Notes: generated by a model from the sequence alone, not told the origin. DNA of 64,000 nt from Candidatus Collierbacteria bacterium RIFOXYD2_FULL_45_13 (GCA_001774685.1 MFAS01000001.1:415557-479556), one strand, 5' to 3'; shown: positions 3,810 through 27,928, numbered from the stretch's first letter. Translations and numbers: made by a program.

Positions 3810-5043
3810 TTTTTAGAAAATCGACAATTTTCTCCGCCGAGATTATTTCGCTTTCCGAACTTTGTCTCATTTTTACCTCCACCCCACCCTTGTCCAAACT
3901 TCTCTGAGAAATTACCATGCGGACCGGACAACCAATCAAGTCTGCATCGGCAAACTTTTCCCCGGCGGTCACCCCTTCCCTGTCATCCCACAAAACCTCT
4001 ACACCCGCCTTCTTAAGGGAATTATAAACCTCCCCAGCTTTTTCTTTTTGTTGTAAATCAACCAGATGAACCAAGAAAGGAGCGACACTCTTTGGCCAGA
4101 CAATCCCTTTATCATCGTGAAACTTCTCTACAATCACTCCCATAGTCCGGCTAATCCCTATGCCGTAACAACCCATGATAGGAAATATATTTTCGCCATT
4201 TTTCCCCGTCACGTTCATTTCAAAAGCTTTGGAGTATTTTTGCCCTAAGTCAAAAACATTCCCTACCTCGGCAGCTTTTGCCGGTTTCAATTTGCTGCCC
4301 CCACATTTCGGACACAGATCACCTTCGGCATTGGTATGAATGTCGTCTACATTTACGCAAAATTCACAAGCTTCACAGTACAAAATATTAGCTTCTCCTG
4401 CATCTGTCAGCACCTCAAACTCGTACGAAACTTTTTCGGTAAAAGCACCACCTGACGCCTCGGTCACTTTGGCATCCAATCCGAGTCTCTTGAACACCTC
4501 AATGTAGGCAGCTTTTACCTTTTCATAATAACTGTCGAAATCTTCTTGAGATTCATGCCACGAGTACATATCCTTCATCAAAAACTCTCGGCCTCTTAAG
4601 ATTCCCGATTTGGCTCTCAGTTCGTCTCTAAACTTCCACTGAATGTGATAAGTGGCTCTTGGCAGATCCTTATACGAATGAATGAATTCTTTCATGAGAG
4701 GGGTAACTACTTCTTCCTGAGACTGCCCTAAGGCGTACTCTTTATCGGTTCTGCTTTTGAGTTTAAACAAGACATGTACGCTATCCCATCCTCCTGACTT
4801 CTTCCAAATTTCTGCTGGGTGCAACATTGGCATCAGTATCTCTTCACCTTCAATCTTATCCATTTCTTCACGCACAACTTGGCTGATTTTTCTCAACACC
4901 ATGAGGCCCATGGGTAAGTAGGTGTAGACACCTGCCATCAGTTGCCTCACAAAACCAGCCTGAACCAATAATTGGTGATTGATTGATTCGGACTCTTTAG
5001 AAACCGTCTTCTCGGGCTTCGCACCCATTCTGCTCATTTTCAT
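3802..5043 (-). CDS. proS: Prolyl-tRNA synthetase, short bacterial-type lacking the INS editing domain
   Basis: Class II aaRS motifs. 'QLLVQAGFVRQLMAGVYTYLPMG' matches the ProRS N-terminus. 413 aa. Confidence 0.9.
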   Translation of the reverse strand: MKMSRMGAKPEKTVSKESESINHQLLVQAGFVRQLMAGVYTYLPMGLMVLRKISQVVREEMDKIEGEEILMPMLHPAEIWKKSGGWDSVHVLFKLKSRTDKEYALGQSQEEVVTPLMKEFIHSYKDLPRATYHIQWKFRDELRAKSGILRGREFLMKDMYSWHESQEDFDSYYEKVKAAYIEVFKRLGLDAKVTEASGGAFTEKVSYEFEVLTDAGEANILYCEACEFCVNVDDIHTNAEGDLCPKCGGSKLKPAKAAEVGNVFDLGQKYSKAFEMNVTGKNGENIFPIMGCYGIGISRTMGVIVEKFHDDKGIVWPKSVAPFLVHLVDLQQKEKAGEVYNSLKKAGVEVLWDDREGVTAGEKFADADLIGCPVRMVISQRSLDKGGVEVKMRQSSESEIISAEKIVDFLKNV

Positions 5044-5065
5044 ACTGTTATTCTACCTCATCGCC

Positions 5066-5106
5066 GTCATTGCGAGGAGCAGGGCGACGTGGCAATCTCA
5101 CTCCAC
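5066..5106. repeat. Dispersed repeat copy A (GTCATTGCGAG-N-GGCAATCTCACTCCAC family)
   Basis: Left motif GTCATTGCGAG at 5066-5076 and right motif GGCAATCTCACTCCAC at 5091-5106. Intergenic between proS and the ATP-cone gene. Produces the spurious TTG-start N-terminal extension 'MRGAGRRGNLTP' in the ORF track. Confidence 0.8.
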
Positions 5107-5975
5107 TACCTGTTATTATAAATTCAGTGATAACCCTTAGTCCCATTACCATTACCAAGGCTTCCGGTGAGCAAGAGCATTTTGATGAATCTAAGCTCGT
5201 AAAGTCTCTAGCCAAAACAGGACTTTCTGTCGACGTTGCCTCACAAACCGTTGACTACCTCAAGCGCCATCTCAGAACCGGCATTACCACCAAAGATATC
5301 CACGGGCACGTTTCCTTCTATCTCAAAGAAAATGCGCCGGTCAGCAACTACTACAACTACGGCCTCAAACGAGCCATTATGGATCTGGGTCCCTCGGGTC
5401 ACCCCTTCGAAACCATTGTGTCTGATGTTCTCTCGGAATACGGATACAAATCCGAAGTTGGCGTCATCGTTCTCGGTAAATGCGTTACTCACGAAATTGA
5501 TGTTGTGGCCAAAAAAGAGACGAAGCAATTTTTTATCGAGTGTAAATTCCACAACAGTCCCGGTGTCAAAACCGATGTTCAGGTTGCTCTCTACACCTAT
5601 GCTCGATTTTTGGACATCAAGTCGGCGATGGAGCAAAGTCACGGAACCAACATTACCTACTACCCATGGTTAGTTACAAACACCAAAGTGACTTCTGAGG
5701 TATTTGACTATGCGGGCTGTGTGGGTTTGGAGCTTACTTCCTGGCTACACCCACAAGGACACGGTATGTCGGATCTGATCATGGCCGCCGGGCTTCATCC
5801 TGTCACCTTGATTTACTCCATTCCCAGATTCAAAATCAACCAGCTTCTGGAGAGGGGAATCGTTACTTGCGCCAGACTTAAAAAGGCGATTGAAGAGAAC
5901 CAAGTCTCCGATATTCTTACTCACGAGGAAATAAATATGACTTTTCAGCATATCAAAGTAATATGTAAAACCTAA
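5070..5975 (+). CDS. ATP-cone domain + Mrr-like PD-(D/E)xK restriction-endonuclease domain protein
   Basis: 'ITKASGEQEHFDESKLVKSL' is an ATP-cone N-terminus. 'HEIDVVAKKETKQFFIECK' is a D...ExK nuclease core. True start probably GTG near 5134 (MITLSPITITK). The first ~20 codons of the ORF are the repeat element. Confidence 0.6.
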   Translation: MRGAGRRGNLTPLPVIINSVITLSPITITKASGEQEHFDESKLVKSLAKTGLSVDVASQTVDYLKRHLRTGITTKDIHGHVSFYLKENAPVSNYYNYGLKRAIMDLGPSGHPFETIVSDVLSEYGYKSEVGVIVLGKCVTHEIDVVAKKETKQFFIECKFHNSPGVKTDVQVALYTYARFLDIKSAMEQSHGTNITYYPWLVTNTKVTSEVFDYAGCVGLELTSWLHPQGHGMSDLIMAAGLHPVTLIYSIPRFKINQLLERGIVTCARLKKAIEENQVSDILTHEEINMTFQHIKVICKT

Positions 5976-6373: not shown

Positions 6374-6697
6374 TTACCCAACGGTCACCCCGATCATGTC
6401 CAGCTTAGGTAGATATCTCTTGATCTCATTTTTAAACTTCTCGGCCAATCCTGCTGAGTAAGTCGCATTCTGGGTATTCTCCATATGTCCACAGAGTTTG
6501 TTTTCATACAGGCGCACGATCTCCATAATTTTTTCCCCCTCGGCATTAAACTCCGCTTGGTGTTTTTGGGGATCTTTTTCATATCTATCGTGTAGCTCCT
6601 GAAAACTATCAAACTCGTTTTCATATTTAGTTACCATTTCTTCAAAAATTTCTTTGAACTTTGCAGCCATGGAAACAATGTTACCAAAACTCCACAA
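6374..6697 (-). CDS. Hypothetical cytoplasmic protein
   Basis: 107 aa charged helical ORF. No recognisable motif. Confidence 0.4.
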   Translation of the reverse strand: MWSFGNIVSMAAKFKEIFEEMVTKYENEFDSFQELHDRYEKDPQKHQAEFNAEGEKIMEIVRLYENKLCGHMENTQNATYSAGLAEKFKNEIKRYLPKLDMIGVTVG

Positions 6698-6700
6698 AAA

Positions 6701-7321
6701 ATGTACACTGTAATTATGAAAAGGACAGTTATTGGATTGGTAGGCCCCATTGCCTCCGGGAAAGGCGAGGTAGCCAAATATCTTCGTGGTTTAGGTTTCA
6801 CCATCCTTAGTCTCTCGGATCGTGTCCGTGAAGAAGTTGACGCGCGTGGGTTACCAATGTCCAGAGAAAACCTTCAGAACGTCGGCAATGATCTCCGGGA
6901 AACTTTTGGTGGTCATATTTTGGCGGAAAGAACCTTGGAACTATTTGGTAACATCGAAGGCAACATTGTTATTGATTCCATTAGGAATCCCTCAGAGATT
7001 GAGTTTCTGAAGCAGACGCTCGACCTTACCGTTATCGGCATCGATGCTTCGCCGGAGCTCAGACTCGAGCGGTACTTGTACCGAGCAGCTCGGCGAGGAG
7101 AGGATCGGGTTTCCGAGTCAGATTTTATTCATTCCAACAGTCGGGACCTGGGCATTGGCGAAAGTGTTTTCGGTCAGCAAGTTGGTCGTTGTCTGGAAAT
7201 GGCTGATGTGGTCATCCAAAACGAAGACACCAAAAAACATTTACTGGAGGCGGTTGATTATTATCTGATTTCCGAGTTGAGTTTCAGCCCCGAAGGCGCT
7301 CGCCGAGCAAAAGAAAAATAA
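6701..7321 (+). CDS. P-loop nucleotide/nucleoside kinase-like protein
   Basis: Walker A 'GLVGPIASGKGE'. 'VIDSIRNPSEIEFLK' resembles an NMP-kinase/AAA_18-type lid. Confidence 0.5.
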   Translation: MYTVIMKRTVIGLVGPIASGKGEVAKYLRGLGFTILSLSDRVREEVDARGLPMSRENLQNVGNDLRETFGGHILAERTLELFGNIEGNIVIDSIRNPSEIEFLKQTLDLTVIGIDASPELRLERYLYRAARRGEDRVSESDFIHSNSRDLGIGESVFGQQVGRCLEMADVVIQNEDTKKHLLEAVDYYLISELSFSPEGARRAKEK

Positions 7322-22981: not shown

Positions 22982-23136
22982 GGTTTCCTCCAAAATTTGA
23001 ATTTGCAACGCTACCGCTATTATAGGACATTTCAAATAGAATGTCAACCTTTTTGGCTTGGACTTGAAATCAAGGTTTGTGAGGTGAGGTGTTATAACGA
23101 AATTCGAACTTATTTTCGGGACCATTACTAATTAAT

Positions 23137-23240
23137 GGCTCACCGCACGGCAAAATTGCCTCGCGGTTCGCCAACCCCGCCAGCCGGCAGGGTTCACCGG
23201 TCGCGCGACACCGCACCTCCAACTGGGTTGTCGGTGAGCC
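23137..23240. repeat. GC-rich structured element (9-bp terminal stem GGCTCACCG/CGGTGAGCC enclosing ~85 nt)
   Basis: Internal hairpins GGCAA-AA-TTGCC and the 12-nt palindrome GGTCGCGCGACC. The central 8-bp stem is perfect only on the minus reading (U-G versus C-A). About 68% GC. Confidence 0.45.
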
Positions 23241-23267
23241 ATACAAACTCGGTATCCCGTCCTCGTC

Positions 23268-23313
23268 GTCATTGCGAGTTTCGATACTTCGAACCGAAGC
23301 AATCTCACTCCAC
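23268..23313. repeat. Dispersed repeat copy B
   Basis: GTCATTGCGAG at 23268-23278, internal TTCGA-TAC-TTCGAA, right motif GCAATCTCACTCCAC at 23299-23313. Confidence 0.8.
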
Positions 23314-23436
23314 TGACACTCGTTTGGGATGATTGCTCTCCGAGCAAGCGACAGCTATCGCTGTCGCATCTCTATGTTCGCCAAAGATCACATAGTGACG
23401 TGGCGAAGCTATCTCAATATATGACTCGTCAAAATC

Positions 23437-23470
23437 GTCATTGCGAGGAGTGCAATGACGAAGCAATCTA
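23437..23470. repeat. Dispersed repeat copy C (degenerate right end)
   Basis: GTCATTGCGAGGAGTGCAATGACGAAGCAATCTA, then the palindrome CAATCTATATAGATTG. A right-end-like fragment GACGTGGCGAAGCTATCTC sits at 23397-23415. Confidence 0.6.
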
Positions 23471-23494
23471 TATAGATTGCGTTTCCTCGCCATA

Positions 23495-23532
23495 AAATAC
23501 CCACTGATTAGGAGAAAATTTTATCAGTGGGT
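23495..23532. repeat. Perfect 12-bp inverted repeat ATACCCACTGAT / ATCAGTGGGTAT with 14-nt spacer
   Basis: Read directly from sequence. Followed by the further palindromes CTGGC-G-GCCAG and GCCTGC-TTC-GCAGGC at 23551-23585. Confidence 0.7.
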
Positions 23533-23637
23533 ATTAAAAGCATTGAGACATCATTGGCCTGGCGGCCAGTGCCTGCTTCGCAGGCATGCAAGCTCATTTG
23601 TATATAAAATACCATTATTTGGTATAAAATAACCTTA

Positions 23638-23826
23638 ATGGACGAGAAAAAAGCAAAATTTTACCAGTCCTACGCGAACCTCCCTTTAGAACTTAGATCT
23701 GAAATTTGTCTAGTTATAGATGGTGAACCAATCACTTGGAATGTGGCAAAACTGGAAATAGATACTGACACAGCAAAAGGAAACGAGATACTTCAAAAAT
23801 TATTTGACTTACTAATTCTAAAATGA
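23638..23826 (+). CDS. Hypothetical protein (AT-rich islet gene 1)
   Basis: 62 aa. No motif. Confidence 0.35.
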   Translation: MDEKKAKFYQSYANLPLELRSEICLVIDGEPITWNVAKLEIDTDTAKGNEILQKLFDLLILK

Positions 23827-24056
23827 CACAAAAAATAACCGACCAGGAAATAAGGAATCTAGTCATCGAAAGACTTAAGTCAATTTCAGATGAATCCAGT
23901 TTGATGATTGGAGGAGACAAAAAACTCTCAAAATCAGACATGATAAAAAGTGTGAAAGACGGAGATGAGATCGGTCAAAAGATAATCGATATGCAAATGA
24001 CTTATTTGAGAGATTTGGCTAGTGGAAAACTGATGGAAAATATTATGTCACTTTAA
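23823..24056 (+). CDS. Hypothetical protein (islet gene 2)
   Basis: 77 aa. ATGA start/stop overlap with gene 1. Confidence 0.4.
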   Translation: MTQKITDQEIRNLVIERLKSISDESSLMIGGDKKLSKSDMIKSVKDGDEIGQKIIDMQMTYLRDLASGKLMENIMSL

Positions 24057-24060
24057 AAAA

Positions 24061-24702
24061 ATGGCCGGAATACTAATAACACGGCCAAATCATGATCAGA
24101 TAACAACTTATTTATCTCAGTGGTCAGAATATGTCATCACATTGGCCAAGTCAAGAGGTAAATCTGTATTTGATTTATTCAGTACTAAGGCTGAGAGAAA
24201 ATATTTTGAACAATATTTAGAATCTAAGAAACCCAATTTTCTATTTCTAAATGGACATGGATCCTCTGACGTGATTTGTGGGTTTAACGACGACGTTTTG
24301 TTGGATGAAGCTGCAAATTCATCAGTGGTGAAAGGACTACTAATTTTTGCCAGAAGTTGCAACGCTGGTGAACATTTAGGACAAATATTGGTGGATAAGG
24401 GAGTAAAAACCTTTATCGGTTATTCCAAGTCGTTTTCTATTGCTATAAATAATCATTATGTCTTTAGACCTAAGGATGATCCGTTAGCAAAGCTATTCAT
24501 CGAACCCTCTAATTTAATCGCAACAACAATTATTAAGGGGAATACCGTACAAGAGGCACATCACAGGTCACTATTGGAAATGAGAAAGACCCTTTCTGAA
24601 ATGATTTCATCTGACATTCCAAACAAAAAAGATTACGCCTTTGCTCTTTACAACAATATGATCGGACAGGTCGTGATAGGTGACGATCAGGCAAAAATAT
24701 GA
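24061..24702 (+). CDS. Caspase-fold (C14/C11/CHAT-like) putative cysteine peptidase (islet gene 3)
   Basis: 'FLFLNGHGSSD' carries the His-Gly dyad after a beta-strand. 'GLLIFARSCNAG' carries the catalytic-Cys strand. Spacing matches the caspase-hemoglobinase fold. Inference only. Confidence 0.4.
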   Translation: MAGILITRPNHDQITTYLSQWSEYVITLAKSRGKSVFDLFSTKAERKYFEQYLESKKPNFLFLNGHGSSDVICGFNDDVLLDEAANSSVVKGLLIFARSCNAGEHLGQILVDKGVKTFIGYSKSFSIAINNHYVFRPKDDPLAKLFIEPSNLIATTIIKGNTVQEAHHRSLLEMRKTLSEMISSDIPNKKDYAFALYNNMIGQVVIGDDQAKI

Positions 24703-24721
24703 ACAACTAACCTAATCAACT

Positions 24722-25138
24722 ATGGCAAAAAAATCAGACAACAGTATCTGGGAGGACGGAGTACAAGTATTCACCAAAGCCGGACATCTTGGCAAAAAAT
24801 TTCGCTATTATGTTCTTTTTACGACAATCAGCGACAAAAAATTAACTGAACATGACAAAGAAATCATTGAGCACACCATCAAAGAAGTAGACAATAAATA
24901 TAAAAGTAAGGCTGAATCTGTTTCCTTTGGAGACGAAACCTACGTCCATATTCATTGGTTAATTCCGGACAACGTTCCACCTCAATCTGTTTACGATCTG
25001 TTCTTGGATGTCATATCTTCAAAATTCAATATCGTGAATTATCATGTCAATTCCTCGAACGTTGACGATTTCACTTCGAAAGATATTGTTGAATACAAAG
25101 AATTCCTGAGAAAAATTAAGAATAAAATGGACGATTAA
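24722..25138 (+). CDS. Hypothetical protein (islet gene 4)
   Basis: 138 aa. No motif. Confidence 0.4.
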   Translation: MAKKSDNSIWEDGVQVFTKAGHLGKKFRYYVLFTTISDKKLTEHDKEIIEHTIKEVDNKYKSKAESVSFGDETYVHIHWLIPDNVPPQSVYDLFLDVISSKFNIVNYHVNSSNVDDFTSKDIVEYKEFLRKIKNKMDD

Positions 25139-25239
25139 AACTGTTTATCACCAAGTTCGTTGAGAAAAGTAAGCCGAATTTCCACCTTTTGAGATCCCAG
25201 AAATCTGGGCGAAACTTCTTTGAGGTAGCGTACTCGCGG

Positions 25240-25335
25240 CGGCGGGAATCGAACCCCTCGGTCAAGTCTGCTGACTTGCCTCGGGGCGCGGCTCGCAGAG
25301 ATCGTTACGAGCTCTGCTCCGCCAGGCTCTCTTCC
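25240..25335 (-). other. tRNA-like fragment / pseudo-tRNA sharing a 17-nt T-arm segment with tRNA-Glu
   Basis: CGGCGGGAATCGAACCC is identical to a segment of tRNA-Glu. The minus reading contains GGTTCGATTCCCGCC and a variable-arm-like hairpin CAAGTC-AGCA-GACTTG. I could fold no consistent acceptor or D-arm. Confidence 0.3.
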
Positions 25336-25350
25336 CGCAAGATGACAATC

Positions 25351-25380
25351 AAAAAAGACTGGATAAACCAGTCCTTTTTT
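25351..25380. terminator. Bidirectional terminator hairpin
   Basis: AAAAAA-GACTGG-ATAAA-CCAGTC-CTTTTTT. Confidence 0.65.
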
Positions 25381-25385
25381 GCTTG

Positions 25386-25459
25386 TGACCCCGGCGGGAA
25401 TCGAACCCGCGATCTTTTGGATGAGAACCAAATGTCCTGGACCGCTAGACGACGGGGCC
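25386..25459 (-). tRNA. tRNA-Glu (anticodon CTC)
   Basis: GGCCCCG-TC-GTCT-AGCGGTCC-AGGACA-TTTGG-TTCTCAT-CCAAA-AGATC-GCGGG-TTCGATT-CCCGC-CGGGGTC-A. Closely parallels the canonical tRNA-Glu fold. CCA not encoded. Confidence 0.8.
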
Positions 25460-25693
25460 ATCGAGCTTATTTTATCATTTTTGGGCTCAGACACGCCTAC
25501 GACATTTTGTGCCTAAATCCGCTTCCAATACTTGACAAAATGGGTGATCCAAACTAAAATACATCTACTATATAGCGTTGTCGTGTCGGTTCCCAGCCAG
25601 AATCCACAAAGCTGGTATTTTTTTACCCACTTTGAGGCTTGACTTCCTATCCACAACCTTTATATTGATACAAATATTGTAATTACAAAAAAC

Positions 25694-26167
25694 ATGGCCC
25701 AAAACACACAACGAGTTCAGATGACCCCTCTAGGCTACAGAGCCTTGGTAGATGAACTCAAACAACTAGAATCAACCGGTCTTCCAGAGGCCATTGAGCG
25801 CGTGGCCAAAGCCCGCGAGTTTGGCGACCTCTCCGAGAACGCCGAATACCACTCCTCAAGAGAAGATCTGGCCGCCCTTGAGGGCCGCATCGAAGAGCTT
25901 AGAGACATCATTACCAGAGTCAACGTCGTCGATATCAAGCGATCCGGAGAAGAAGAGGTTGGTATCGGTAGTGTGGTCATGGTCACTATCAACAACAGTC
26001 AGCATGAGTTCTCCATTGTTGGAGAGTGGGAAGCCGATCCTGCCGCCAAAAAGATCTCTCACGAATCCCCTTTAGGCAAAGCACTTCTTGGTAAAAAAGT
26101 CGGTGATCACGTCGAAGTCGAAGCCCCTGCAGGCAAAGTCACCTACATCGTCAAGTCGGTTAAGTAA
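25694..26167 (+). CDS. greA: Transcription elongation factor GreA
   Basis: 'GDLSENAEYHSSREDLAALEGRIEEL' coiled-coil tip plus FKBP-like C-domain. 157 aa. Confidence 0.95.
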   Translation: MAQNTQRVQMTPLGYRALVDELKQLESTGLPEAIERVAKAREFGDLSENAEYHSSREDLAALEGRIEELRDIITRVNVVDIKRSGEEEVGIGSVVMVTINNSQHEFSIVGEWEADPAAKKISHESPLGKALLGKKVGDHVEVEAPAGKVTYIVKSVK

Positions 26168-27928
26168 CTACCAGCTTCCGCCACCGCCGCCACCACCACC
26201 ACCTCCCGAAGATCCTCCGGAAAATCCGGAACCTCCTGATGAGGAAGACGAGGGGTTGTACGAAAGTCCGCTGGCTGCCGTATGACTGAAGTCCGACACA
26301 AAGCCGGACCACGCCAGATTATTCATGCCCACCCCGCCATCTAAATATTTTGGTGGTTTAATATTTAATGCAGACATGTCCTTGGCCAGTTTGCCAATGA
26401 CACCCAGAGCGATCGCAAAGGGGAGCACTTCTTCAATAAAGAGATGTTTTTCTTTTATCTCCTCCCTCCATTTTCCGAGACGTATCGTTTCACGCAGACC
26501 CTTGATCTGAAGGGTGAAGTTAGTCCCAACTGCGGTTTTTTGAGGCATGTTCCAAGCAAACCAAATCGAGACTAGGATAGAAACCAATAGGGTTATCACC
26601 GGCCACCCTTCTTGCAGAAAACTAATGGGACCGATGGTGACTGCAAAAGTCAAACCGGACACGCATACTGCCAGTACCATCCATACACCACGGGTAGTAC
26701 TGGGGTTGGCCGTAAACAACCTCCTTTCTTTCAACCGATCGTTGATCATTTTCTTTACCTTGGTCATATGAGTGTAGAAAGTCCCCTTCAGGTCACTGAG
26801 TTTGACCGAGGTTTTGGAATTAAAAATGTGCTCCATCAGGTATTCCTGTTGAGGCGGTAGATCTCCCGGACCGGACTTGAACTTGGTCAACAGAAAGTCA
26901 TGTCCAAACTTCAGGAAGCCTTTCTTCTCCACCTTCTCAATCCCTAGGTATTTCTTTCGGGCGAGGTCAATTATCTCGGCCACCACATCTTGATTATCCA
27001 CCTTCTCATCCAGCATGGCTCCGGCTTCTCCCGGCGTCAGATCCTTCAGCGGTTCGTAAACCATTGGTATATTTATTGGTTCAAAAATCGGTCTTAATGC
27101 ATTTGGTTGACCTGGATCTAGATTAAATGCATTGGGAGAATTAAATCGGAAGTCTCGCCCTTTCTTATACCAAACCAAAAACATTAATAGTCCGGGAACA
27201 ATCGTCAAGGCCAAAAACAGGTTGTTCGTGGCCGTCGCTATCCATCTCTCGGTCGTCGTGGGAAAGATTAAATTATTATTTTTATCCAGTTTCACTGCAA
27301 CCGTAAAATTGTCTCCATAACCGACCTCTTCAAGTGCCTCTATTCTTAGCCGATTGTCTTCCTGGCCGATTTTACAGTTCGAAGATACACTTCCCACGGG
27401 TCCTACAAAACAAATTGTTTCTCCACTTGAGGCAAAAGGGGATCTGATCGTCACCGTCGAAGTCAAGACCGGAAACTGCCAGCCTTCGCCGGTGATATCC
27501 CAATAAAGTTCATCGAAGTCTTTATGTCTGAGAATGGCGTGGTCGATTTTGTAGGAAATATTGTAGACGCGACTTCCCGAAAAAGTTTGTTCGGGATCTC
27601 CAATCTTCAACGTCAGATTTCCACTTTCTCTCGTCGTGGAAAATGGCATTGGTTTACCTTCGGTATCGGTTACGGAAATATCGGAGACTGGGTTAGTATA
27701 GACCAGTCCTTCTCGTCTGTATTTCTCTGGAATATAGCGAAAGATGCCGTGTTTCTCAACAGGCGAAAAGTACTCGATCTTCTCGGTAATAGACAAAGAG
27801 GTGTCCTGGTTTATCTCTATGACGGAATCAAAGCTGGTGATAGCTTCTCCTGTGGGTTCCTGAGCCATGACGCCGGGTATTTGCACGAGGGACAAAATCA
27901 GCGCCAAGCAAATCACAATTTTCTTCAT
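26168..27928 (-). CDS. DUF2207-family membrane protein with Gly/Ser-rich C-terminal tail
   Basis: Signal peptide, large extracytoplasmic domain, TM cluster and poly-G/S tail 'SSSGGSGFSGGSSGGGGGGGGGGSW'. Confidence 0.6.
   Translation of the reverse strand: MKKIVICLALILSLVQIPGVMAQEPTGEAITSFDSVIEINQDTSLSITEKIEYFSPVEKHGIFRYIPEKYRREGLVYTNPVSDISVTDTEGKPMPFSTTRESGNLTLKIGDPEQTFSGSRVYNISYKIDHAILRHKDFDELYWDITGEGWQFPVLTSTVTIRSPFASSGETICFVGPVGSVSSNCKIGQEDNRLRIEALEEVGYGDNFTVAVKLDKNNNLIFPTTTERWIATATNNLFLALTIVPGLLMFLVWYKKGRDFRFNSPNAFNLDPGQPNALRPIFEPINIPMVYEPLKDLTPGEAGAMLDEKVDNQDVVAEIIDLARKKYLGIEKVEKKGFLKFGHDFLLTKFKSGPGDLPPQQEYLMEHIFNSKTSVKLSDLKGTFYTHMTKVKKMINDRLKERRLFTANPSTTRGVWMVLAVCVSGLTFAVTIGPISFLQEGWPVITLLVSILVSIWFAWNMPQKTAVGTNFTLQIKGLRETIRLGKWREEIKEKHLFIEEVLPFAIALGVIGKLAKDMSALNIKPPKYLDGGVGMNNLAWSGFVSDFSHTAASGLSYNPSSSSSGGSGFSGGSSGGGGGGGGGGSW

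What the first reader, a model, noticed from the sequence alone, without database searches (positions are those of the whole stretch)
23126..25470. AT-rich four-gene islet with a caspase-fold protein, wedged between a palindrome-rich hotspot and tRNA-Glu plus a duplicated tRNA fragment
Genes 23638-25138 are all of unknown function: 62, 77, 213 and 138 aa, co-directional, with an overlapping ATGA junction. They are distinctly more AT-rich than the flanking genes. The 213-aa protein has the His-Gly...(S)C(N)AG dyad arrangement of the caspase/CHAT fold. Upstream, 23126-23640 has no credible ORF but holds two copies of the dispersed repeat, a 100-nt GC-rich stem-loop element, and several perfect palindromes. 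Those palindromes include ATACCCACTGAT(14)ATCAGTGGGTAT, GCGACAGC-TA-TCGCTGTCGC and CAATCTATATAGATTG. Downstream lie tRNA-Glu and, 50 nt beyond it, a 96-nt tRNA-like fragment repeating 17 nt of the tRNA-Glu T-arm. A tRNA plus a partial tRNA repeat plus an AT-rich cargo is the classic signature of a decayed integrative element, although I saw no integrase.
Basis: partly seen in the sequence, partly recalled or inferred. Interest (0 to 1): 0.7.

Follow-up and report, generated by a model that had tools for sequence, protein, structure and literature searches.

The report
Mobile cassette with caspase-like protease
The AT-rich four-gene block beside tRNA-Glu is a horizontally moved cassette whose core (two tiny proteins plus a minimal caspase-like protease) is a strictly conserved, unannotated three-gene unit shared by ultra-small CPR bacteria and DPANN archaea; here it is framed by repeats that lie next to a serine recombinase gene in related genomes.

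Summary
There are four co-directional ORFs of 62, 77, 213 and 138 aa. They form the lowest-GC 1.5 kb of the window (0.352 against a median of 0.453). tRNA-Glu(ctc) lies downstream, with an exact 17-nt T-arm repeat nearby.

- **Three-gene unit.** 62-77-213 keeps the same order in every one of about 40 CPR and DPANN loci that has enough upstream DNA. Its neighbours always differ and often include AbiE, PIN, Fic or R-M genes. None of the three proteins has a Pfam, NCBIfam, PHROG or PADLOC model.
- **The "hotspot".** It is one copy of a multi-copy composite repeat of Collierbacteria-like genomes. In at least 8 related contigs this repeat lies 179-226 nt from a divergent large serine recombinase gene.
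- **Permuted ends.** The islet's right-end 33 nt and its left end are contiguous beside that recombinase in other genomes. The window has no recombinase, so its copy is non-autonomous.
- **tRNA-like fragment.** It is a 113-nt element, 92% conserved, that sits downstream of a tRNA-Glu gene in at least one other genome. It is not this islet's att scar.

The function is inferred, not shown: a protease-centred conflict or addiction-type module.

The parts
23063..23090 (+). Left junction: a small hairpin (CTTGAAATCAAG) followed by TTTGTGAGGTGA. It resembles the sequence that abuts tRNA-Glu 3' ends (..TTGTGA|tRNA).
   Evidence: Read. The junction alignment puts the window, L001 and L003 left junctions in register with the tRNA 3' flanks at ..GTGA|.
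23091..23117 (+). Left end of the repeat frame (GGTGTTATAACGAAATTCGAACTTATTTTC). Homology with all other copies begins here.
   Evidence: Single copy in the window. The same boundary is seen in about 35 metagenome copies that have different left flanks. It forms an imperfect inverted repeat with 25164-25182 (I3).
23135..23242 (.).
   Evidence: Perfect 11-nt closing arms (I10). Folding z -3.8 and -4.2. The core 22-mer occurs in 43 metagenome stretches, with 2 copies on several contigs. No Rfam match. RNAalifold shows no useful covariation.
23266..23305 (+). REP-like dispersed repeat unit 1 (TCGTCATTGCGAG ... CGAAGCAATCT).
   Evidence: (D2, D11) and 9: 7 copies in the window against 0.75 expected.
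23435..23469 (+). REP-like dispersed repeat unit 2, which forms its own hairpin (TCGTCATTGC/GCAATGACGA).
   Evidence: (I19, D2, D11).
23496..23535 (.). Perfect palindrome with 13-nt arms and a 14-nt spacer. It belongs to a promoter-proximal module that recurs upstream of other genes in relatives.
   Evidence: I5. Conserved in L003 at two places, 6720-6770 and 5300-5345, and in L084 with different arm sequences.
23555..23637 (+). Two short GC hairpins (23555-23568 and 23570-23586), then an AT-rich stretch with an extended -10-like TGGTATAAAAT (23620-23630) 8 nt before the ATG. Probably the cassette promoter, giving a leaderless or near-leaderless mRNA (inferred).
   Evidence: Sequence. Conserved in L001. 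In L003 the two hairpins are kept but are followed by the 223-aa gene, not by this AT-rich stretch. Kept in L010 even though the rest of the repeat is absent there. The consensus scan did not call it because there is no -35.
23638..23826 (+). p62, first gene of the conserved three-gene unit. Function unknown.
   Evidence: Homologue directly upstream of p77 and p213 in every locus with enough DNA. P16, R20, W34, E40 and L55 are invariant. Only sub-threshold DUF7713 hits. Weak profile similarity to p77.
23823..24056 (+). p77, second gene. A small protein of helix, beta-hairpin and three helices, with no known fold relative.
24061..24702 (+). p213, a stand-alone minimal clan-CD (caspase/gingipain/CHAT-like) cysteine protease with a His66-Cys100 dyad.
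   Evidence: 2256 clusters at 50% identity with E<=1e-3; the 150 best are nearly all 200-220 aa.
24722..25138 (+). p138, a lineage-restricted accessory gene that travels with the repeat frame rather than with the three-gene core.
   Evidence: Only 12 close homologues. Follows the cassette in the window, L001 and L010. Follows a different cargo (a PIN-like pair) in L084, which has the same right end. The HUH-transposase idea is not supported.
25164..25190 (+). Right-end imperfect inverted copy of the left end. Its reverse complement reads GGTGGAAATTCGGCTTACTTTTC.
   Evidence: I3: 19 nt, 74% complementary; the extension is read. An analogous pair in L003 is read.
25194..25226 (+). A 33-nt block (hairpin CCCAGAAATCTGGG plus CGAAACTTCTTTGAGGT). 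In other genomes it lies directly in front of the left-end sequence, between that end and a divergent large serine recombinase gene.
   Evidence: Unique in the window. 100% identical copies in more than 15 loci. Contiguous with GGTGTTATAACG in L003 and in many metagenome copies. Recombinase geometry.
25228..25340 (-). tRNA-like structured element that shares 17 nt with the tRNA-Glu T arm. A conserved element, not a private scar.
   Evidence: Folding z -3.65. 92% identical over 113 nt in L087, where it follows tRNA-Lys and tRNA-Glu(ttc). L058 holds an 82-nt copy whose 3' end reads like the 3' end of tRNA-Glu. Not called by ARAGORN or Rfam.
25345..25386 (.). Bidirectional terminator-like hairpin between tRNA-Glu and the tRNA-like element.
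   Evidence: (I8). L087 has a different hairpin at the equivalent position.
25385..25459 (-). tRNA-Glu(ctc), the anchor of the hotspot.
   Evidence: A 98.7% identical tRNA in L082 is abutted at its 3' end by a large serine recombinase gene.

Best explanation
The islet is horizontally acquired cargo in a tRNA-Glu-linked recombination hotspot of a Collierbacteria-like CPR genome.

**Core (shown).** The core is a self-contained three-gene operon. Two small, translationally coupled proteins (62 and 77 aa) precede a 213-aa stand-alone clan-CD cysteine protease with an intact His-Cys dyad. The unit keeps its order across CPR bacteria and DPANN archaea, while everything around it changes.

**Frame (shown).** In this lineage the operon, plus an accessory 138-aa gene, sits inside a repeat frame.
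- On the left is an end sequence followed by a ~550-nt non-coding module.
- On the right is an end block.
- The frame is multi-copy. It also carries other cargo, for example a PIN-like pair plus the 138-aa gene.
- In several related contigs it lies ~190 nt from a divergently transcribed large serine recombinase gene.

**Mobility (inferred).** The frame and its cargo are moved or rearranged by that recombinase through site-specific recombination at tRNA-Glu or tRNA-like 3' flanks. The window copy has lost the recombinase and is non-autonomous.

**Function (inferred, weakest step).** The operon works as a protease-centred conflict module of the addiction or defence type. The two small proteins would be stoichiometric regulators or substrates of the protease.
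For: **Strict order.** p62-p77-p213 is found in every one of ~40 loci with enough upstream DNA.

**Active-site-intact clan-CD fold.**

**Family size.** 2256 50%-identity clusters for p213, with no fusion among the 150 best listed, which are nearly all 200-220 aa. 373 p77 relatives of 65-88 aa.

**Variable neighbourhoods.**
- No neighbour gene recurs across the 32 loci compared.
- Among 150 neighbour proteins from 29 of those loci, the most frequent families are AbiEii (4), AbiEi (3), PDC-S01/DUF4143 (3), Fic, PIN and mad3.
- The 85%-identical copy has an R-M pair and Fic upstream. Another copy has a faint Zeta-toxin match and a Fic/RhuM gene nearby.

**Composition.** The cassette has lower GC than its flanks in 30 of 35 loci. 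It is the lowest-GC stretch of this window.

**Presence/absence.** The same tRNA-Glu(ctc) has different cargo in L065 (with GreA beside it) and in L082.

**Repeat frame.**
- 43 metagenome stretches hold the core 22-mer. Several contigs have 2 copies and many copies lie at contig ends.
- Diverse genes lie downstream of the frame.
- L084 has the same frame and right end with different cargo plus p138.

**Recombinase link.**
- Large serine recombinases (Resolvase + Recombinase + Zn_ribbon) lie 179-226 nt from the left end, divergent, in L082, L056, L079, L059, L058, L064, L061 and L087.
- The window's right-end 33 nt is identical to the spacer block that directly abuts the left end there. The two ends of the islet therefore rejoin into a sequence that is contiguous elsewhere.

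**Direct repeat in a relative.** In L003 an 83-nt direct repeat (92% identity) flanks the 3.2-kb version of the islet next to tRNA-Glu(ttc).
Against: - No recombinase in the 64-kb window.
- I could not derive one att model that explains all arrangements. In L058 and L087 the left end points away from the tRNA-like element; in the window it points towards it.
- The short shared junction core (TGAGGT) could be chance.
- Many metagenome loci are probably the same site in related strains, so the counts are not independent.
- L010 carries the four genes without the repeat frame.
- For function there is no direct evidence. PADLOC has no model. p77 has no recognisable fold relative. p62 and p138 were not modelled.
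- No toxin-like component is recognisable apart from the protease.
- A family this large and this well conserved could equally serve a housekeeping maturation role.
Confidence: 0.5

Rival explanations
1. Classic decayed tRNA-integrating island. An element integrated into the 3' half of tRNA-Glu using an integrase that was later lost, and the 17-nt T-arm copy is the surviving att repeat.
For: An exact 17-nt repeat of the tRNA-Glu T arm in direct orientation. AT-rich cargo. In L058 the homologous element shares a longer 3' stretch with tRNA-Glu.
Against: - The repeat lies 135 nt from the tRNA, on the proximal side of the islet, so it brackets only a terminator and not the four genes.
- The distal (left) junction lacks the 17-mer.
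- The fragment is 92% conserved over 113 nt and follows a different tRNA-Glu gene in another genome (L087). This argues for a maintained element.
- The recombinases linked to the frame are serine recombinases.
Confidence: 0.12
2. The three-gene unit is an ordinary, vertically inherited housekeeping operon of ultra-small prokaryotes, for example a dedicated maturation protease with two chaperone or substrate proteins. Its low GC would reflect amino-acid composition, not transfer.
For: - Very large, well-conserved family with invariant motifs and strict gene order.
- Confined, as far as the organism labels go, to CPR and DPANN.
- No recognisable toxin.
- No hit in the virus contig scan and none in plasmids.
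Against: - The genomic context differs in every lineage examined.
- Close relatives with the same tRNA-Glu(ctc) gene (L065, L082) lack it at that site.
- GC is lower than the flanks in 30 of 35 loci.
- It sits among TA, defence and R-M genes more often than beside any housekeeping partner.
- A distant two-gene version is in an archaeal virus genome.
Confidence: 0.2
3. The islet is an IS200/IS605-like element. p138 would be a Y1 (HUH) transposase and the flanking palindromes its subterminal hairpins.
For: - p138 has a layout reminiscent of Y1 transposases (YYVLFTT .. YVHIHWLIPDNVPPQSV .. VEYKEFLRK).
- hhalign aligns exactly that HIH segment to the HUH motif.
- p138 travels with the frame independently of the protease cassette.
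- The flanks are rich in palindromes.
Against: - The profile-profile score is insignificant: E 0.19, probability 0.3%.
- No Y1_Tnp hit in Pfam or NCBIfam, and no PDB hit.
- The first His of the motif is Leu in 2 of 12 homologues.
- Only 12 close homologues exist.
Confidence: 0.08
4. The module is virus-derived, for example a viral counter-defence or maturation protease captured by cells.
For: A distant homologue (29% identity; GHG and SC motifs kept; a C-terminal transmembrane helix added) is preceded by a 66-aa p77-like ORF in Caudoviricetes sp. vir519, whose recorded host is Methanofastidiosa.
Against: - One hit among 50,697 phage records.
- None confirmed in the IMG/VR scan.
- Neighbouring ORFs in the cellular loci were not scanned against PHROGs; the most frequent Pfam families among them include only Bro-N as a phage-linked domain.
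- The p77-like match is weak (11.7 bits).
Confidence: 0.07

Closest known systems
Clan CD cysteine peptidases: gingipains (C25), CHAT-domain proteases (SAVED-CHAT, Csx29/TPR-CHAT), metacaspases and caspases (C14), legumain and GPI transamidase (C13), separase (C50)
   Different: - 213 aa with nothing but the catalytic domain. No prodomain, p10/p20 split, TPR, SAVED or Ig domains.
- No sequence-profile match to any Pfam clan-CD family.
- Its own invariant N-terminal TRPNHD motif.
- Always encoded after two dedicated small proteins.
Caspase-like proteases with adjacent small partner proteins in prokaryotic immunity (type III-E Craspase Csx29 with Csx30/Csx31; SAVED-CHAT cascades)
   Same: A clan-CD protease is encoded next to small proteins that, in those systems, are its substrates or regulators. 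It occurs in accessory, defence-rich regions. (That this system works like them is inference.)
   Different: No CRISPR effector, cyclic-nucleotide sensor or any other sensor domain. The partner proteins are unrelated (p77 has no fold relative). Not in PADLOC. No experimental link to phage.
Mobile elements moved by large serine recombinases (phage-type serine integrases; Tn4451/Tn5397-type TnpX/TndX elements). This comparison is from general knowledge.
   Same: A Resolvase + Recombinase + Zn-ribbon recombinase is encoded at the edge of the repeat frame in relatives. The two ends rejoin into a contiguous sequence, as expected for a circular intermediate. One such recombinase abuts the same tRNA-Glu.
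   Different: The window copy has no recombinase. The frame carries long, repeat-rich non-coding DNA (~550 nt). The flanking similarity in L003 is 83+ nt, far longer than typical serine-integrase att sites. Orientation varies between loci.
REP/MITE-type intergenic repeats
   Same: Multi-copy, hairpin-rich, non-coding and often at contig ends. Tiny GC-rich palindromes are nested in the hairpin loops.
   Different: Here the repeats form a composite module of several hundred nt that lies upstream of, and mostly co-oriented with, varied genes, and that is linked to a serine recombinase.

Membership tests
Clan CD (caspase-haemoglobinase fold) cysteine peptidases | Alpha/beta/alpha sandwich with the clan-CD strand order | tested here: met
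Clan CD (caspase-haemoglobinase fold) cysteine peptidases | Catalytic His (usually His-Gly) then Cys, each at the C-terminal end of adjacent central strands | tested here: met
   H66-G67 follows strand 60-64 and C100 follows strand 94-98. H66 and G67 are invariant; C100 is kept in 24 of 25. Residue-level superposition on a solved active site was not available.
Clan CD (caspase-haemoglobinase fold) cysteine peptidases | Match to a curated sequence family (Peptidase_C14, CHAT, C13, C25, C11 and others) | tested here: not met
   No Pfam hit at E<=1. No NCBIfam hit. The PDB sequence profile finds nothing relevant.
Clan CD (caspase-haemoglobinase fold) cysteine peptidases | Peptidase (or transpeptidase) activity | not testable with these tools
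   Needs biochemistry.
tRNA-linked integrative element / genomic island | Own integrase or recombinase gene | tested here: not met
   None of the four ORFs matches a recombinase. tblastn with the L082 serine recombinase finds nothing in the 64-kb window. Relatives do have one next to the same repeat frame and next to the same tRNA.
tRNA-linked integrative element / genomic island | Direct repeats (att) at both ends, one overlapping or adjoining the tRNA | tested here: inconclusive
   In the window only a short, diverged repeat (hairpin + TTTG(T)GAGGT) is present at both junctions. The 17-nt tRNA repeat does not bracket the genes. In L003 an 83-nt, 92% direct repeat brackets the island next to tRNA-Glu(ttc).
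tRNA-linked integrative element / genomic island | Presence/absence or alternative occupancy at the same site in relatives; same cargo at different sites | tested here: met
   L065 (tRNA-Glu(ctc) with GreA) and L082 (tRNA-Glu(ctc)) carry different cargo at the site. The cassette is found in at least 4 contexts.
tRNA-linked integrative element / genomic island | Atypical base composition | tested here: met
IS200/IS605 (Y1 HUH transposase) for p138 | HUH motif plus catalytic Tyr in a Y1_Tnp-like domain | tested here: not met
   hhalign against five solved or canonical Y1 transposases gives E 0.19, probability 0.3%. No Pfam Y1_Tnp hit. The first His is Leu in 2 of 12. The fold was not tested.
Known anti-phage defence or toxin-antitoxin systems | Match to a catalogued system component | tested here: not met
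   PADLOC has no hit for any of the four proteins.
Known anti-phage defence or toxin-antitoxin systems | Location in variable, defence- or TA-rich neighbourhoods | tested here: inconclusive
   AbiEii/AbiEi, PDC-S01, Fic, PIN and mad3 are the most frequent neighbour families, but each occurs in only 2-4 of 150 neighbour proteins and housekeeping genes are also present. There was no background control.
Described structured RNAs (Rfam), for the GC-rich module and the tRNA-like element | Covariance-model match, or covariation support for a structure | tested here: not met
   No Rfam match other than tRNA-Glu at E<=10 that is relevant. RNAalifold covariation term is +0.68, with 1 of 31 pairs showing a double change. 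The copies are too similar to test properly.

The most novel reading that the evidence does not exclude
p62-p77-p213 is a previously undescribed, widespread three-protein system built on a minimal caspase-like protease. It would be specific to ultra-small, host-dependent prokaryotes (CPR bacteria and DPANN archaea) and exchanged between them. It would act as a new kind of protease-based conflict system (addiction, defence, or host-symbiont interaction). In Collierbacteria it would be one of several swappable cargoes of a serine-recombinase-driven cassette platform at tRNA-Glu.
Probability: 0.3. Interest if true: 0.75.

Novelty: new variant of a known kind. Interest (0 to 1): 0.62.

Why it matters
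Caspase-like proteases are central effectors of prokaryotic immunity and programmed cell death. Known examples, however, carry sensor or adaptor domains.

This family is a bare catalytic domain tied to two dedicated small proteins. It comprises more than 2,000 clusters at 50% identity and has no annotation in any library tested. As far as the organism labels show, it is confined to the two radiations of ultra-small symbionts. That makes it a tractable entry point, at three small genes, into the biology of organisms that cannot be cultured alone.

The repeat frame with exchangeable cargo and an associated large serine recombinase is also one of the few concrete candidates for how accessory genes move in CPR genomes.

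Tried and rejected
- **Sequence-profile annotation** of all four proteins against Pfam, PHROGs, PADLOC, NCBIfam and PDB profiles gave nothing above noise.
- **p138 as a Y1 HUH transposase.** Not supported.
- **GC-rich module as a known or covarying RNA.** No Rfam match and no covariation; it is a dispersed repeat.
- **tRNA-like fragment as a tRNA, tmRNA or selenocysteine tRNA.** Not called by ARAGORN or Rfam, and no acceptor pairing is evident.
- **A conserved fourth gene.** None exists.
- **tRNA adjacency as a general property of the cassette.** It holds only in the Collierbacteria-type loci.
- **Viral and plasmid carriage.** One distant viral hit and no plasmid hit.
- **Literature searches.** Nothing relevant was found.
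- **AFDB fold library.** It was unavailable.
- **A single att-site model.** I tried to derive one that fits the window, L001, L003, L058 and L087. The arrangements differ in orientation, so I did not settle on one.

Full report
**What is there**

The window region holds four co-directional ORFs:
- 23638-23826 (62 aa)
- 23823-24056 (77 aa, overlapping the first by ATGA)
- 24061-24702 (213 aa)
- 24722-25138 (138 aa)

Their GC is 0.352. The median of all 1501-nt windows is 0.453 and the 5th percentile is 0.416. Only 0.24% of windows are as low, and all of those overlap the islet.

tRNA-Glu(ctc) lies at 25385-25459 on the minus strand. An exact 17-nt copy of its T-arm region lies at 25240-25256.

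The upstream 23126-23640 holds these features:
- two GTCATTGCGAG...CGAAGCAATC units, of 7 in the window against 0.75 expected;
- a GC-rich element at 23135-23242 closed by perfect 11-nt arms, with folding z about -4;

**The protease**

The closest named relative places the organism among Candidatus Collierbacteria, in the CPR.

No profile library recognises the 213-aa protein. An AlphaFold model built on 25 homologues is very confident, with pLDDT 96.5. Its structural neighbours are all clan-CD peptidases:
- Foldseek: SAVED-CHAT at E 9e-7, then caspase-4/11, gingipain R and legumain.

N64, H66 and G67 are invariant and C100 is present in 24 of 25 sequences. Both catalytic residues sit at the ends of adjacent central strands.

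What is unusual is the size. The protein is just the catalytic domain, with no accessory domain.

**The conserved unit is three genes, not four**

- A full-library HMM search finds 2256 clusters at 50% identity (E<=1e-3). The 150 best are nearly all 200-220 aa stand-alone proteins.
- A scan of one genome per species returned 38 loci. They come from many CPR phyla (Collier-, Gottesman-, Levy-, Shapiro-, Magasanik-, Lipton-, Falkow-, Uhr-, Gribaldo-, Saccharibacteria, Paceibacterota) and from DPANN archaea (Altiarchaeota, Aenigmatarchaeota, Woesearchaeota, Nanohalarchaeota).
- Several records are labelled Gammaproteobacteria or Pseudomonadales. These are probably mislabelled bins, but I could not check.
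- In every locus with enough upstream DNA, homologues of the 62-aa and 77-aa proteins precede the protease in the same order, usually with overlapping or abutting reading frames.
- The 138-aa gene follows only in the window, L001 and L010. It has just 12 close homologues.
- No other neighbour recurs.
- Among 150 flanking proteins the most frequent families are AbiEii, AbiEi, PDC-S01/DUF4143, Fic, PIN and mad3, alongside ordinary housekeeping genes.
- The cassette has lower GC than its flanks in 30 of 35 loci.

**The small proteins**

- p62 and p77 are weakly similar to each other (hhalign E 5e-4 over 33 columns, probability 32%).
- p77 has 373 relatives, all 65-88 aa and never fused.
- p62 gives only sub-threshold DUF7713 matches.
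- A distant two-gene version is in an archaeal virus genome. It is a 66-aa p77-like ORF followed by a 248-aa protease homologue with a C-terminal membrane helix.
- Nothing was confirmed in IMG/VR or in plasmids.

**The "palindrome-rich hotspot" is a dispersed composite repeat**

- The whole stretch, from GTGAGGTGTTATAACGAA (23084) to the start of the genes, is homologous in three different genomic contexts. These are the window, L001/L002 and L003-L006.
- A metagenome scan with a 22-mer from the GC-rich module found 43 stretches. One looks like a chance hit in unrelated GC-rich DNA.
- Several contigs hold two copies, typically one short and one long form in inverted orientation. Many copies lie at contig ends.
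- The left boundary is always ...TGA|GGTGTTATAACGA, while the DNA to its left varies.
- The long form is followed, mostly co-directionally, by many different genes.
- Only two of these loci carry the protease cassette.
- L084 has the same non-coding module, a different cargo and the same right end as the window. The cargo is a 51-aa ORF, a 172-aa PIN-like protein (Pfam PIN E 1e-4, just below cutoff) and a p138 homologue.
- L010 carries the four genes without the frame.
- The GC-rich module shows length variation through small GC palindromes nested in its hairpin loops. It shows no usable covariation and no Rfam match. I treat it as a repeat module whose structure may matter as DNA or as RNA.

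**Link to a recombinase**

- In L082, a tRNA-Glu(ctc) 98.7% identical to the window's is abutted at its 3' end by a large serine recombinase gene with Resolvase, Recombinase and Zn_ribbon_recom domains.
- Homologous recombinase genes (full-length ones 470-590 aa; L061 and L087 hold shorter ORFs of 207 and 320 aa) lie 179-226 nt from the repeat's left end, divergently oriented. This holds in L082 (a second gene), L056, L079, L059, L058, L064, L061 and L087. Pfam domains were confirmed for six recombinases: L056, L079, L064, L059, the second L082 gene, and L048, which is not in that arrangement.
- The spacer between recombinase and left end ends with the 33-nt block ATCCCAGAAATCTGGGCGAAACTTCTTTGAGGT. 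In the window this block sits at the opposite (right) end of the islet, at 25194-25226.
- Joining the islet's right end to its left end therefore recreates a sequence that is contiguous beside the recombinase elsewhere. That is what a circular intermediate or site-specific rearrangement would give.
- Both window junctions contain TGAGGT. The left reads ..GGTTTGTGAGGTGA|GGTGTTATAACG and the right reads ..CTTCTTTGAGGT|AGCGTAC.
- A 19-27-nt imperfect inverted copy of the left end lies at 25164-25190 (I3).
- In L003 the 3.2-kb version (223, 62, 77, 213 and 261 aa) is bracketed by an 83-nt, 92% direct repeat next to tRNA-Glu(ttc).
- The window has no recombinase.
- I could not fit all loci to one att model. 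The orientation of the left end relative to the tRNA-like element differs between the window and L058/L087. The mechanism of movement is therefore inferred, not shown.

**The site is a hotspot**

The same tRNA-Glu(ctc) gene has different neighbours in related genomes:
- the same four-gene cassette in the 85%-identical relative, which also has GreA downstream, but with a completely different left flank (R-M, Fic, hydrolases);
- an inverted copy of the repeat driving an R-M-like pair (a D12 methyltransferase plus a 475-aa protein) in L065, where GreA also follows the tRNA;
- a serine recombinase in L082, whose contig ends before any GreA gene;
- other genes, with the cassette 4 kb away, in L011, where GreA also follows the tRNA.

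**The tRNA-like fragment**

- Relative to L001, the window has about 190 extra nt between p138 and tRNA-Glu. They comprise the right-end blocks, the fragment and a terminator hairpin.
- The fragment (25228-25340, minus strand) folds stably (z -3.65).
- It is 92% identical over 113 nt to a sequence in L087. There it follows tRNA-Lys, tRNA-Glu(ttc) and a different terminator hairpin.
- L058 has an 82-nt copy, cut by the contig end, whose 3' end reads like the 3' end of tRNA-Glu.
- It is therefore a maintained element that follows a tRNA-Glu gene in at least two genomes, not the private scar of this islet. Whether it is an RNA gene or a recombination target is open.

**How it most likely works**

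- Shown: a relocatable, compositionally foreign, strictly ordered three-gene unit encoding an active-site-intact clan-CD protease, and a repeat frame linked to serine recombinases.
- Inferred: the frame and its cargo move by serine-recombinase action at tRNA-Glu-type flanks, and the window copy is non-autonomous.
- Inferred, and the weakest step: the operon is a protease-based conflict module in which the two co-translated small proteins regulate the protease or are cleaved by it. This would work like, but not belong to, the CHAT/Craspase-type systems. A housekeeping maturation role is the main rival.

**Novelty**

The fold is known. The family, its obligatory two partners, its restriction to CPR and DPANN and the repeat/recombinase platform were not found in any library or in the literature searched. 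I rate it a new variant of a known kind.

Noticed in passing
window 25228-25340 (-); L087 3207-3319; L058 2745-2826: A 113-nt structured, tRNA-like element that follows a tRNA-Glu gene (ctc here, ttc in L087) is 92% conserved between genomes, while the intervening terminator hairpin is not. L058 holds an 82-nt copy cut by the contig end. It is not in Rfam and not called as a tRNA. It could be a small RNA gene or a recombination target.
   Followed up: partly
window 5066, 23268, 23437, 48263, 49043, 58945, 59050: REP-like dispersed unit GTCATTGCGAG...CGAAGCAATC, all on the + strand: 7 copies against 0.75 expected. The same unit also occurs inside the long form of the repeat in many related contigs.
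   Followed up: partly
L051, L066, L083, L057, L080 (alignment A14); window 23135-23242 is the uninterrupted form: Different copies of the GC-rich module carry extra small GC-rich palindromes (e.g. CCTGCCTGCCGGCAGG) inserted exactly at hairpin loops, as if a tiny palindromic element nests there.
   Followed up: no
L084 787-1867: The same repeat frame and right end carry a different cargo: a 51-aa ORF, a 172-aa PIN-like protein (a probable toxin-antitoxin pair) and a p138 homologue. p138 therefore belongs to the frame rather than to the protease cassette.
   Followed up: partly
L082 5609-7273 and 7088-7200: The large serine recombinase ORF has no stop before tRNA-Glu and reads through it on the opposite strand. 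Just past the tRNA's 5' end, a 23-nt piece of the tRNA (AAATGTCCTAGACCGCTAGACGA) is repeated in tandem.
   Followed up: no
L055, L066, and contigs Ga0172379_10004778 (L054/L085) and Ga0076010_104 (L056/L057); L064 3657 and 6874: Contigs with two repeat copies have a short form and a long form in inverted orientation, 3-9 kb apart. On some (L055, L056, L064) a serine recombinase lies just outside the short-form copy. This architecture would also fit an invertible segment.
   Followed up: no
window 23620-23640; L001 7560-7580; L010 2890-2912: An extended -10-like TGGTATAAAAT lies 8-9 nt before the ATG of the first gene, with no Shine-Dalgarno sequence. It is conserved in three lineages and suggests a leaderless mRNA.
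   Followed up: no
L090 (BK063666.1) 4705-5648: An archaeal virus genome (recorded host Methanofastidiosa) encodes a distant two-gene version: a 66-aa p77-like ORF followed by a 248-aa protease homologue with a C-terminal transmembrane helix.
   Followed up: partly
window 26168-27928 (-): A DUF2207 membrane protein ends in a run of about 25 Gly/Ser residues. The antisense ORF at 26088-26285, with its poly-Pro run, is its mirror image and is spurious. This gene is absent between GreA and the HD-domain gene in the 85%-identical relative.
   Followed up: no
L003 5200-5390 against 6380-6810: A second, shorter copy of the promoter-proximal module (including the ATAAAATACCCAC..GTGGGTATT palindrome) lies upstream of an 89-aa gene 1.2 kb from the island. 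The module therefore recurs even within one locus.
   Followed up: no
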